From: Eledone cirrhosa
Taxonomy: Eukaryota
Length of the DNA stretch: 64,000 nt
Direction of reading: 5' to 3'
Assembly: GCA_964016885.1 (NCBI GenBank)
Contig: OZ024743.1
Coordinates: 178,684,001-178,748,000, forward strand
Shown: positions 17,643 to 60,858 of the stretch, piece by piece
How the letters are laid out: every line of letters starts with the position of its first letter
How positions within the stretch are numbered: position 1 is the stretch's first letter
Program-made: the position numbers and the translations under genes
The notes under the pieces: generated by a model
The model's input: only the letters and a program-made list of their open reading frames with translations
Databases searched by the model: none
Told to the model about the DNA's origin: nothing

Positions 17643-17693
17643 AGTTTCAGAAGATCCCGTTAAGGGTGAAAGCAGCGATTCTTTGCTTAAACT
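17643..17693 (+). ncRNA. Family A pLTR hammerhead (variant core CAGAAGA); minus copies at 16124-16174 and 60934-60984
   Basis: agttt-CAGAAGA-t-ccc-gttaa-ggg-t-GAAA-gca..tgc-TT-aaact. Confidence 0.65.
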
Positions 17694-17847
17694 TTAATCT
17701 GTTATTTTAATAAATATTTGCTCTTCGGTTCTTATATATTTGATATATATTTTCCTTATCGAGTCCTCTTTGGATTTTAGTCTTCAATTTTATTATTATT
17801 ACTATTTGGCTCCTTCGGTTGAGCACTCTATTGACTTATATTCATCA

Positions 17848-19699
17848 TGCAGAAACAACATCTGAATATTTCTACAAAGAACATACCCGTACCAAGCAGG
17901 AAAACATACCCAAAACTCCTGATACAGTAAACAGACGCGTTCATTAAAAGGTTGCGTTGGCGTGCCTTTTATTTCGATAATCCGCGAAAAGCAGACAACA
18001 AACAGGACAAATTTGGATTTAAAACCTATAATAACCCTCCGTGGAACCCAGCATTGCTACCCTTCGAAAATGATGTCTTGGAACTTATCGGAGTATCAAA
18101 TTTCGGAATAGGAGCAATTCCTTCCAGCAAGACCTGAAGAATAGAATTCGTTCTATTAAGGATTCTAACGCCGTGCACGTCCATTCCGACAAAACAGGCA
18201 ACCTATATCAAGTGGAGCGCAGTACTTACCATCAACTACTACATAATGCTGTAACTAAGGATTACCGTAAAACTGATCGGTGTGTCATCAATGAAATCAA
18301 CGATGCTGGGTTTAATATCACATCTGATCTCAACATCCTGGACCGGACCGAACCTCTGGACCCTATCTCTCCCCACTTTACCCTGAAGGATCACAAATCC
18401 AATTTTCCGAACAACCCCTCTATTCCGCTTATTAACCCTACGAAGTCCGATTTAGGTAGACTTAGTAAAACGATTCTTGATAGAATTATACCTGAAATTA
18501 GAAGTTTGGCCCCTCTCGCACTGTGGAACAATTCTTTCGCGGTGATTGATTGGTTAAACGGCATATGTAACAAGGAACATTGCCGTTTTATCCAATTCGA
18601 CATCAACAATTACTACTCCTCCATCACTTTACCACTTCTCCTTAGAGCTATCAATTTCGCTAAAACACTCACAGTGGTTAAGGATTTCGAAGTTGATGTC
18701 ATCCTTAATGCCCGAAAGTCGGTGATTAATTTCGACGACTCTATTTGGATTAAAAAATCCAATAGTACCCCATTCGACGTGAGTATGGGCGCCAGTGACT
18801 CTGCGGAGGTTACTGATCTTATTGGCCTTTTCCTTCTTTTCTCTATCAAGGACGAATTCCCCAACGCGGGCGGTGGTTTGTACCGTGACGATGGTCTTTT
18901 GACCATGACTAAGTGCGGACCTCGTGCTTGCGACAGATTCAGAAAAGAACTCACAGCCTTCTTTAAATGCTTCAACCTCTCTATACAGGTTGAGGCCAAT
19001 CTCTTGGTCGTTAATTACCTCGACGTTACCCTCAATTTATTGAATGGGTTGTATTACTCGTATAGAAAGCCGAATGATACGCTTAATTACATAAGTAAGC
19101 ATTCCAACCATCCTGCCAGCATAACCAAGAACCTGGTAAAAAACGTTTCGTTGAGGCTTTCCCGTCTTTCCACCAACGAGCGCATTTTCAACGACCATTC
19201 CACTTATTACAATGAAGCTCTTGCTCGAAGTGGATTTGTCGATAGGGTAGCATATACAGAGTACGAGAATAGACCTAGAAGAAATAGATCCCGTCGCATT
19301 TGTTGGTTTAACCCACCATATAATATGGAGGTGGCCACACCATTAGCTAAGATCTTTCTTTCCCTTATTACGAAGCATTTTCCTCCTACACATAAATATA
19401 GTAAAATGTTTAATAGAAAAACTATTAAAATTTCTTACTCTACGACTCCTAACCTTGCACATAACATCACAGCTTCAAATTTAGCTAAACTACCTAGCCG
19501 TAGGAACACGTGCAACCCTGTAGTTAGTACTAACTGTAATTGTAGGAATCGGGCTGATTGTCCCCTATCCGGGAAATGCCTCTCTAGTAACATTGTCTAC
19601 AAATGTAAGGTTGTAACACCCACGTCCCGTAGGGCCTACATAGGGTTAACCGCCAATAGTTTCAAGCAGCGTCTTTACATGCATACCCATTCTTTTCGT
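17848..19699 (+). pseudogene. PLE reverse transcriptase + GIY-YIG endonuclease (disrupted; Naiad-like by motif)
   Basis: MQKQHLNISTKNIPVPS start, stop at ~17928 and frameshift at ~18095; FIQFDINNYYSSI, FDVSMGASDSAEV, GLYRDDGL, NYLDVTL, WFNPPY, CNCRNRADCPLSGKC, IVYKC..YIG; sequence switches to pLTR after HSFR. Confidence 0.9.
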
Positions 19700-59435: not shown

Positions 59436-60270
59436 ATATATATATATATATATATATATATATATATATATATATCAGGGGCGAAGGGCGCGTCCATGCA
59501 ACGTATGCAGTGCATGCGTTATAGAATCTTGAGTTGATCAATTTCGTCGGCTGAAGCAAGCAGAATTTTGGCTGCTAAATCGTAGACACATAAAAAGATA
59601 AGTTATGGTATTAATTTTTAATACCCAATTCTAAAATTTCAATAATTCTCATCTAGCAATCCATTCTATAGCATTGGCCGAAAAAGCAGCACCAACTAAA
59701 TATAGCAGCTGTGTTAGACTCCTTAGTTTTTGTTTTATTTCACTTCTCACTTTCCAATCTTACATTCTGATATATCTGTCTCTCATTTTTTATTATATTT
59801 TTGTTGTCCCCTAATCTCATTTGATTTACCTTTTCTATAACGTCCCTCCTCCCTTTTTCTAAAGAAACCTATTTTCGCCTACCTCCCCTGGCCTACTTTC
59901 ATACACAATCCAGAATTTGCCGTGTAGATTTCACCTTCAACACTTGACCGGGTCTACCCACTCCCCTATTGTTCTACAGGCAAGTTCAGCCAACGCCACC
60001 TCGCACCCTCTGCCATGATAGACTTTTCTGTGTCAGCTACAAATTTTGACCAAATCTCTTGACAACTACAATCTTCCCATATAAGGAAGTACCCCTTGAA
60101 AAGTTCGGCTATTTATTTACCAGACTAAAAAAACTCTTACTTTAGTCCAGAAATAGCGGTCGGGGTCATACTTTCTCCTATATATATATAACGAAGGAGG
60201 TGTGGTAAGGAACCAGGTGGACCGTATATATATATATATTAGTAATATATATATATATATATATATATAT

Positions 60271-60858
60271 TTTAGTAAGTAAGTTAATTTTTAATTTTTA
60301 AAATTTTCTTATTTTACGTCTTTCATATAATTGTTCTGCATGCCCCTGCATAGAACCACCTAGGTACTTTGACATAACTTATATATTTGCTAGCATTAGT
60401 GTACATCTGTACGCATATGTTGGTCGATGTACTAATTCTCTATATTTATCTCCAAATTATTTGTTGAGCAAACTTGCCAAATCTACTGCTAATTCATTGT
60501 AGTAGTAGTAGGCTCTTGTCATAATACCACCCCACTCCGAACTGAGTAACCTCAGTGTCACGTGATTGATTCTTTAGAATCTGCCATTGACCAGAGGCAG
60601 TGAACTTTTTCAGTGCTATGGAATTTAGTCCTCGCTAGCTTATTACATCCACTGAATTATTATTTTTATATGGGTTCCTAGTGTCCGCGCATTGCCTGGG
60701 AACTTAGCTGAGAATAGACTCCCTGATGACGTAATGAATTCTCGATAGTTATATTGTGTAACTATATTTATCCCATTACAGAAACTAATTAGTTGGAGTG
60801 AAAATTTTAGTAAGTTAATTTTTAATTTTTAAAATTTTCTTATTTTACGTCTTTCATA
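60271..60858 (+). mobile_element. Non-coding HHR element: ~530-bp monomer plus ~55-bp terminal direct repeat in (TA)n
   Basis: 60271-60328 is repeated at 60806-60858; no ORF; HHR at 60718-60799. Confidence 0.8.
60718..60799 (+). ncRNA. Candidate HHR with extended stem II
   Basis: actcc-CTGATGA-c-gtaatg..atagtta/taactat..cattac-a-GAAA-CTAATTAG-TT-ggagt. Confidence 0.8.

What the first reader, a model, noticed from the sequence alone, without database searches (positions are those of the whole stretch)
17655..60780. Shared non-canonical first pair of stem II (positions 10.1-11.1) across unrelated HHR families
Seen: the canonical G10.1-C11.1 pair is replaced by U.U (17655/17667, 22245/22150, 37838/37827, 54292/54302, 6180/6150), A.A (21581/21670, 26033/26045), C.A (60730/60780) or A.G (32527/32546), usually followed at once by a normal helix. 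Inference: recurrence in unrelated families argues for a distinct HHR structural subclass rather than decay. Strict descriptors requiring an R-Y pair would miss it.
Basis: partly seen in the sequence, partly recalled or inferred. Interest (0 to 1): 0.75.

Follow-up and report, generated by a model that had tools for sequence, protein, structure and literature searches.

The report
Retrotransposon hammerheads tolerate mismatched first pair
Nine hammerhead-shaped RNA motifs in repeats, five of them tied to Penelope-type jumping genes, have an unpaired first step in their second helix as the family norm, but close relatives switch between paired and unpaired and the commonest form (U opposite U) is already published, so this is likely a tolerated position in predicted slow ribozymes, not a new class.

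Summary
Observation confirmed; interpretation partly. All nine sites read as cited. The window holds 18 type I hammerhead motifs against 0.33 in shuffles. The mismatch is not decay: it is the majority state in all nine families (69-100% of listed copies). But it is not a discrete subclass. One family holds G-C, G·U, A-U and U·U subfamilies, another U-A, C·A, A·A and A·G. In 1.2 Mb of evenly spaced genome stretches, 31 of 78 motifs are unpaired there, 42 are paired by a non-G-C pair and only 5 are G-C. Five families sit on Hydra-clade Penelope ORFs, so they are not independent. U10.1·U11.1 is in print: a natural variant (Perreault 2011), the self-cleaving axolotl HHR_Amex2 (2020), and 14 of 26 Hydra-clade rows (Craig 2021). 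I did not find family-wide A·A or A·G in print. Best reading: a fold under selection with a relaxed catalytic rate. Two large families also fixed U4A (17,744 copies) or U4C. The scan noted U·U and C·A before on other DNA of this genome. Cleavage was not tested.

The parts
17643..17693 (+). F1 type I hammerhead motif; U·U at 17655/17667, U4A core, predicted cut after 17688; lies in the pseudo-LTR ahead of a Hydra-clade ORF
   Evidence: 17,744 exact 32-nt genomic matches, first 100 listed all U·U and all U4A
54280..54319 (+). F2 hammerhead motif; U·U at 54292/54302, 2-bp helix II, palindromic stem III
   Evidence: 88 of 95 family rows among the first 100 of 8,101 matches are U·U (hand count)
22133..22257 (-). 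F3 hammerhead motif with 96-nt stem II; U·U at 22245/22150; relatives have A-U, G·U, G-C
37812..37850 (-). F4 hammerhead motif; U·U at 37838/37827; the G5A of this copy is private decay
   Evidence: 5,965 matches; 98 of the first 100 U·U, 1 of 100 G5A
6131..6194 (-). F5 hammerhead motif; U·U at 6180/6150; old, decayed copy
   Evidence: 11 of 11 matches U·U, one of them this copy
21569..21686 (+). F6 hammerhead-like motif; A·A at 21581/21670, 90-nt stem II, stem I pairs only with a bulge
   Evidence: 30 of 30 loci A·A, one of them this copy; copies 98-99% identical
26018..26067 (+). F7 hammerhead motif; A·A at 26033/26045
   Evidence: 1,605 matches; 96 of the first 100 A·A, 2 A·G, 2 U-A
60718..60799 (+). 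F8 hammerhead motif; C·A at 60730/60780 above a covarying helix
   Evidence: 8,961 matches; 99 of the first 100 C·A; 17 of 17 distinct aligned rows unpaired
32515..32563 (+). F9 hammerhead motif; A·G at 32527/32546, U4C core; relatives have U-A, C·A, A·A
   Evidence: 5,917 matches; first 100: A·G 69, U-A 13, C·A 13, A·A 2, C·C 2, C·U 1; U4C in 96
18074..19867 (+). Open frame of the F1 element: Hydra-clade Penelope reverse transcriptase (DKT, YRDD), CxCX5C linker and start of a GIY-YIG endonuclease, truncated near 19698
   Evidence: no Pfam match
60889..62483 (-). 3' part of a second F1 copy: endonuclease end with CxxC and CxH motifs, 3' region, and hammerhead motif with U·U at 60972/60960
16150..16162 (-). 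Stem II of a further F1 copy (U·U), in the inverted copy next to 17356-17717
8902..8914 (-). Stem II of a further F7 copy (A·A); another, cut short by a TA repeat, at 9373-9385 (+)
30460..30479 (-). Stem II of a further F9 copy (A·G); another at 41035-41054 (-)
8074..8162 (-). Stem II of an F3 relative with a Watson-Crick A-U first pair (counter-example inside the window)
43031..43063 (-). Stem II of a hammerhead motif with A-U first pair; second copy at 47710-47745 (+)
56553..56578 (-). Stem II of a hammerhead motif with U-A first pair

Best explanation
These are type I hammerhead motifs near the 3' ends of high-copy repeats (five of nine families carry Hydra-clade Penelope ORFs), and positions 10.1/11.1 switch between G-C, G·U, A-U, U-A and mismatches while the helix below stays paired, likely because the element needs the fold but only slow, probably dimer- or protein-assisted cutting. 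Shown: the motifs, their family-level states, the switching, and that copies run 20 to about 200 nt past the predicted cut. Inferred: the mismatch would stack between the G12/A9 end of the core and helix II, at a cost in rate. That cost would be cheap, because the element is copied from RNA that still spans the cut site, so mismatches and even U4 changes ride along with successful subfamilies.
For: Family majority states. Switching: the F3 tree needs at least 6 changes among G-C, G·U, A-U, U·U and A·C; F9 holds U-A, C·A, A·A and A·G over an unchanged 6-bp helix; 6 of 20 multi-member clusters hold both paired and unpaired states. Census of 120 evenly spaced 10-kb stretches: unpaired at pair 1 in 31 of 78, at pair 2 in 1, pair 3 in 2, pair 5 in 3; G-C in 5 of 78. 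Other lesions fixed in large families: U4A in F1, U4C in F9, bulged stem I in F6. Copy ends lie downstream of the predicted cut in two length classes, often into (TA)n, with no pile-up at the cut. Papers: U·U is natural and the best of the mispairs in vitro (PMC3088659 section 8). Axolotl U·U HHR_Amex2 cleaves 22% in 1 h as a monomer and more as a dimer (PMC7229834). A Poseidon hammerhead cleaves only with protein, and its cleavage is not needed for insertion in vitro (PMC11167929). Penelope hammerheads have low activity in vitro (PMC4209133).
Against: The position is not freely drifting. F8 keeps C·A in 99 of 100 rows while pair 3 takes four Watson-Crick states. F2 keeps U·U across several loop and N7 variants. 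U·U occurs in Hydra-clade elements of three phyla. No C-G, G·A or G·G first pair was seen among 78 census motifs. No ORF was tied to F4, F5 or F7, and only one doubtful hit to F8. Copies spanning the cut could also come from cut-and-religated circles. No cleavage was measured here, and the Poseidon result is from another clade.
Confidence: 0.6

Rival explanations
1. The mismatch is selected in some lineages. It would be a brake that keeps the template uncut until the element's protein or a partner RNA binds, or a contact point for that protein.
For: F8: C·A in 17 of 17 distinct rows while pair 3 has four Watson-Crick states and pair 6 two; a single C-to-U transition would pair it, yet only 1 of 100 rows shows that. 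U·U in 14 of 26 published Hydra-clade rows across cnidarians, an echinoderm and a crustacean. The 3' ends of copies lie downstream of the cut, so fast cutting would remove the end used for copying.
Against: About 9 of 37 interior stem II positions in F8 are invariant too, so two invariant positions are only weak evidence (roughly 0.06 by that rate, my estimate). F3 and F9 subfamilies with paired states also spread. The mismatch identity differs between families.
Confidence: 0.22
2. The numbering is off for part of the set. In F5-F8 the real G10.1-C11.1 pair is intact one step out, with one extra base on each side: the known extra base after A9 of Penelope minimal hammerheads plus one before G12.
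For: G-C follows the mismatch in F5, F6, F7 and F8 and in PLE-X1_cBra (C·A then G-C). The extra base after A9 followed by G-C is the published consensus (PMC4209133).
Against: In F1, F2, F3, F4 and F9 the next pair is C-G or U-A. F3 subfamilies put G-C at the first position itself. An F6 relative has A·A over A-U, and other C·A families have A-U, G·U or C-G below.
Confidence: 0.1
3. The ribozymes of these families are catalytically dead. Only the hairpins are kept, or they are simply inherited.
For: U4A fixed in a 17,744-copy family; weak stem I in F6; no copy ends at the cut; several monomers do not fold to the hammerhead shape by minimum energy.
Against: Stems I and II covary in F8 (18 two-sided cells against 4.9 in shuffles). 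CUGANGA, GAAA and the U-H triplet are kept in most families. U·U ribozymes cleave in published tests.
Confidence: 0.08

Closest known systems
Hammerheads of Hydra-clade Penelope-like elements (Craig et al. 2021, PMC8557442; section 11 and File S2 read)
   Same: Type I fold near the 3' end, short stem III, (TA)n targets. By my count of the 26 Hydra rows: 14 U·U, 1 U·C, 4 G·U, 7 G-C at the first step of stem II. F4 resembles the Hydra 'HM' rows. F1 and F9 ORFs carry DKT and CxCX5C.
   Different: The table places the mismatched bases in the 'core' columns without comment in the passages read. No Hydra row has A·A or A·G, and C·A occurs only in PLE-X1_cBra, which is not a Hydra element. No row has U4A or U4C.
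Natural U10.1-U11.1 hammerhead variant (Perreault et al. 2011, PMC3088659; section 8 and passages read)
   Same: Stem II starts with a U·U mismatch, described as the mispair with the highest activity. Very short stems II are noted too.
   Different: Reported as a rare surprise; here U·U is the norm in five families with thousands of copies in four of them. A·A, C·A and A·G are not mentioned in the section read.
Axolotl retrozyme HHR_Amex2 (Cervera and de la Peña 2020, PMC7229834; passages and section 14 read)
   Same: About 60,000 copies with a U·U mismatch at the base of helix II; self-cleaves weakly as a monomer and better as a dimer. F7 and F8 also occur as short tandem repeats (about 440 and 560 bp).
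   Different: Amex2 has loop 1-loop 2 contacts and lies in 350-bp retrozymes shown to make circles; neither was tested here.
Minimal hammerheads of metazoan Penelope elements (Cervera and de la Peña 2014, PMC4209133; text parts 1-2 of 4 and supplement parts 1-2 of 3 read)
   Same: Type I, palindromic short stem III, predicted dimer, low activity, an extra base after A9. Its Hydra row is the U·U motif.
   Different: Its consensus keeps G10.1-C11.1 directly before GAAA. That register is rare here (3 of 83 census motifs by my descriptor, which asks for at least 3 bp of stem I and a score of 10).

Membership tests
Type I hammerhead ribozyme | CUGANGA and GAAA boxes with U16.1-H17 | tested here: met
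   Exact in 6 of 9 window copies. F4 is exact at family level. F1 has U4A and F9 has U4C at family level, so the feature is not fully met for those two.
Type I hammerhead ribozyme | Three helices, stem I open | tested here: met
   8 of 9 pass the descriptor; covariation in F8. F6 stem I needs a bulge.
Type I hammerhead ribozyme | Paired 10.1-11.1, usually G-C | tested here: not met
   Unpaired in all nine; U·U is a published exception.
Type I hammerhead ribozyme | Self-cleavage after H17 | not testable with these tools
   No RNA holder listed; copy ends give no sign either way.
Hydra-clade Penelope-like elements | RT with DKT in place of DKG | tested here: met
   F1 and F9 (L299); this region was not recovered for the other seven families.
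Hydra-clade Penelope-like elements | [quoted passage not shown] | tested here: met
   F1, F2, F6, F3 (L309) and F9 (L299).
Hydra-clade Penelope-like elements | ORF linkage for F4, F5, F7, F8 | tested here: inconclusive
   No same-strand upstream hit in 10, 11 and 10 loci; 1 of 20 for F8; none in 9 longer stretches of these four families.
Hydra-clade Penelope-like elements | Insertion into (TA)n, tandem or inverted pseudo-LTRs, two alternative 3' ends | tested here: met
   Seen by eye in up to 12 loci per family; clearest in F1, F2, F8, F9.
Hydra-clade Penelope-like elements | Placement in an RT tree with published Hydra proteins | not tested
   Assignment rests on motifs only.
Non-LTR retrozymes | Short tandem repeats with one hammerhead per unit and no ORF | tested here: inconclusive
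   F7 (about 440 bp) and F8 (about 560 bp) occur in short tandems; these could also be truncated pseudo-LTR tandems.
Non-LTR retrozymes | Circular RNA of unit length | not testable with these tools
   No RNA data.
Rfam hammerhead families | Score above the gathering threshold | tested here: not met
   No hammerhead among the 150 listed of 169 window matches (19 weaker ones not shown). In 9 loci only two sub-threshold HH9 hits, both in L072; F3 loci with A-U and G-C were missed too.
   Four mismatch types; paired and unpaired states mix within families.

The most novel reading that the evidence does not exclude
In this genome Penelope hammerheads have largely abandoned G10.1-C11.1 (5 of 78), and the mismatches (with U4A or U4C in two large families) are selected brakes or protein contacts. 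They would turn the ribozyme into a protein-gated switch, or a purely structural signal for copying. The subfamily series G-C, G·U, A-U, U·U and U-A, C·A, A·A, A·G would then be a natural allelic ladder for asking what Penelope hammerheads are for.
Probability: 0.22. Interest if true: 0.62.

Novelty: new member of a known kind. Interest (0 to 1): 0.32.

Why it matters
It is still open what hammerheads do in Penelope-like elements. Here about 40% of sampled motifs (31 of 78) fail the usual 10.1-11.1 pairing filter, so strict searches undercount them, and Rfam misses them with or without the pair. The natural series of paired and unpaired subfamilies, and a young 17,744-copy family with U4A plus U·U, give ready test pairs for whether fast cleavage matters to retrotransposition. 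The headline claim itself is modest, because U·U has been in print since 2011.

Tried and rejected
Chance: rejected (reversed-pattern controls 0-6 against thousands of matches, 0 against 11 for F5). Copy-level decay: rejected for 10.1/11.1 in all nine families, accepted for G5A at 37838 and for the inner helix at 6180. 'Rfam misses them because of the mismatch': rejected, since A-U and G-C relatives are missed too. 'G-C is always intact one step out': holds for 4 of 9 only. Copy ends as evidence of cutting: no pile-up within 5 nt of the predicted cut among blast starts pooled over nine families; the sample is small and biased to loci chosen by an intact core, so this is weak. Expression: no RNA holder listed, which is no evidence either way. 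Minimum-energy folding of monomers gave z below -2 for 3 of 9 and is not informative for junction ribozymes. Pfam found nothing on the F1 ORF. Papers not held: Lünse et al. 2017 on small Penelope hammerheads and Nelson and Uhlenbeck 2008. The first could already describe A·A, C·A or A·G states. Roberts 2023 (passages) gave no value for this pair. The figures of all papers were not visible. An early guess in my notes about one row of the 2014 supplement was withdrawn.

Full report
Setting. The window is microsatellite-rich repeat DNA from a 3.0-Gb genome (G000:C4:178684001-178748000). Earlier scan notes call the genome octopus-like; I did not test that. Family names F1-F9 are mine. Tallies of 'the first 100' are hand counts on the 100 places that each search listed, from the start of C1. 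Positions 10.1 and 11.1 were left free in those patterns, except, which fixed U·U and is not used for tallies.

Observation. All nine sites read as cited. A type I descriptor (core with at most one change, at least 2 pairs after 10.1/11.1, stem III palindromic or at least 2 bp, stem I at least 4 bp) gives 18 loci against 0.33 in 40 shuffles. Of the 18, 14 have a mismatch and 4 a normal pair; none has G-C. The cited site 21581 is not among them, because its stem I pairs only with a bulge. A looser scan added a G·U site at 27820 and one weak hit.

Decay or family state. F1 (17655): 17,744 matches, 100 of 100 U·U and 100 of 100 U4A. F2 (54292): 88 of 95 family rows U·U among the first 100 of 8,101 matches; 5 rows of other families were dropped. 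F3 (22245): 2,363 matches, 10.1 is U in 81, G in 11 and A in 8; the listing cut off 11.1. In 35 fetched loci (the first 15, all 19 A or G rows, and 1 more U row) the states were U·U 16, A-U 7, G-C 7, G·U 4, A·C 1. F4 (37838): 5,965 matches, 98 of 100 U·U. F5 (6180): 11 of 11 U·U. F6 (21581): 30 of 30 loci A·A, chosen as the best blast hits and so biased to near-copies. F7 (26033): 1,605 matches, 96 of 100 A·A. F8 (60730): 8,961 matches, 99 of 100 C·A. F9 (32527): 5,917 matches; A·G 69, U-A 13, C·A 13, A·A 2, C·C 2, C·U 1; U4C in 96. So the mismatches were copied by active elements.

Subclass or tolerant position. A tree of 37 F3 rows needs at least 6 changes among five states, with well-supported U·U and G-C groups. 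The root is arbitrary and the two trait columns were left in the 312-column alignment. The F9 tree separates U-A rows from intermixed C·A and A·G rows, with weak support inside. For a census I took 120 evenly spaced 10-kb stretches. They gave 83 motifs at score 10 or more against 3 in reversed sequence; 78 are in the symmetric register. First pair: A-U 31, U·U 15, C·A 9, G·U 7, A·A 5, G-C 5, U-A 3, A·G 2, U·G 1. Unpaired at pair 1: 31; pair 2: 1; pair 3: 2; pair 4: 43 (partly loops, partly a separate C·C feature); pair 5: 3. The score drops short-stemmed families such as F1, F2 and F4, so U·U is undercounted. An earlier scoring on the first 80 stretches gave 32 mismatched of 63. With all held loci added, 20 clusters had two or more members: 10 mostly mismatched, 9 mostly paired, 1 with a single extra base; 6 held both states. 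This is a continuum, not a separate class.

Signs of constraint, told against my reading. In F8, C·A is unchanged in 17 of 17 distinct rows while pair 3 shows U-A, C-G, A-U and G-C and pair 6 shows U-A and G-C (18 two-sided cells against 4.9 in shuffles; related sequences can exceed such shuffles). But about a quarter of interior stem II positions are invariant in that alignment too, so this is suggestive only. F2 keeps U·U across several loop and N7 variants.

Host elements. The frame at 18074-19867 follows the F1 motif and encodes an RT with DKT and YRDD, a CxCX5C linker and a GIY-YIG start. The copy at 62483-60889 (-) shows the endonuclease end and then the F1 motif. These are the Hydra-clade marks of Craig 2021. 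F9 has a pLTR-ORF-pLTR copy with DKT and CxCX5C (L299), and F3 an ORF with CxCX5C ending about 1 kb upstream (L309). F2 and F6 have the linker upstream in several loci (same-strand hits in 4 of 30 and 5 of 30). F4, F5 and F7 gave no ORF link and F8 one doubtful one; F7 and F8 form short tandems and may be non-autonomous. So at least five families are kin. Copies end about 20 to 200 nt after the predicted cut, often in two length classes and into (TA)n, and neither end piles up at the cut.

How it likely works. Shown: the fold is kept, the first pair is variable, and inserted copies span the cut site. From the literature: palindromic stem III motifs cleave weakly and as dimers; a Poseidon hammerhead needs the element's protein and its cutting is dispensable for insertion in vitro; U·U is the least harmful mispair and occurs naturally; U4C lowers activity but was tolerated in a viroid. 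From my own knowledge, not from a call: G10.1 N7 helps bind a metal ion beside A9, and pair 10.1-11.1 stacks on the G12·A9 pair. Inferred: the mismatch stacks at that step and slows cutting; slow cutting costs the element little, or helps by sparing the template, so mismatches and U4 changes became fixed in successful subfamilies (0.6). Rivals: selected brake or contact (0.22), extra bases over an intact G-C in F5-F8 (0.1), dead ribozymes (0.08).

What is known. Perreault 2011 describes U10.1-U11.1 and also confirms that strict filters reject such hits. Cervera and de la Peña 2020 report about 60,000 axolotl copies with U·U that self-cleave. Craig 2021 File S2 lists 14 U·U and 1 U·C among 26 Hydra rows, and one C·A row in a charophyte element, under 'canonical HHR motifs'. 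The 2014 supplement holds the Hydra U·U motif. Eight paper searches turned up no account of family-wide A·A or A·G, but Lünse 2017 could not be read and no figures were visible. The 2026 retrozyme preprint was read only in its first fifth, and its supplements are closed. Rfam catches neither paired nor unpaired versions.

Verdict. Real and non-random, but mostly anticipated: new members of a known kind, with a wider range of first-pair states than I found described. Interest 0.32. The more striking side result is U4A fixed in a very large young family.

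Noticed in passing
window 17648-17654 and 17,744 genomic matches: F1 carries U4A in the catalytic core in 100 of 100 listed copies, with U·U and an AU-rich 5-bp stem I, yet is very large and young: a natural test of whether catalysis is needed.
   Followed up: partly
window 32520-32526; F9 carries U4C in 96 of 100 listed copies, including most subfamilies with a U-A first pair.
   Followed up: partly
window 21569-21573 and 21683-21686; L204-L233: F6 is young (98-99% identity, 1,475 first-look candidates) but its stem I pairs only with a bulged C; a relative (L091) has an intact stem I.
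   Followed up: partly
census; window 43031-43063 and 6150-6180: The fourth step of stem II is often unpaired (43 of 78, partly loops), frequently C·C; earlier scan notes describe this on other DNA.
   Followed up: no
window 54232-54266 against 54287-54321: A short inverted copy of the F2 motif sits directly upstream of it, a foldback that could pair with the ribozyme.
   Followed up: no
window 3538-5052 (+): Two adjacent frames with RVT_1, the second with a PHD finger match; zf-RVT at 6817-7518 (-): fragments of other non-LTR retroelements.
   Followed up: no
window 44500-45544 (-) and 58539-58847 (-): Two further Hydra-type ORF fragments with CxCX5C linkers, upstream of the A-U (43063) and U-A (56578) hammerhead motifs.
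   Followed up: partly
window 21094-21191: A near-perfect hairpin of about 97 nt, beside a 49-bp direct repeat; the Rfam microRNA matches are below threshold.
   Followed up: no
L307 (G000:C1:76401700-76407300): Two F3 motifs with G-C first pairs lie 4.6 kb apart on one strand, with no match to the F1 protein between them.
   Followed up: no
window 24750-25462: 17-bp minisatellite, about 42 copies at 94% identity.
   Followed up: no
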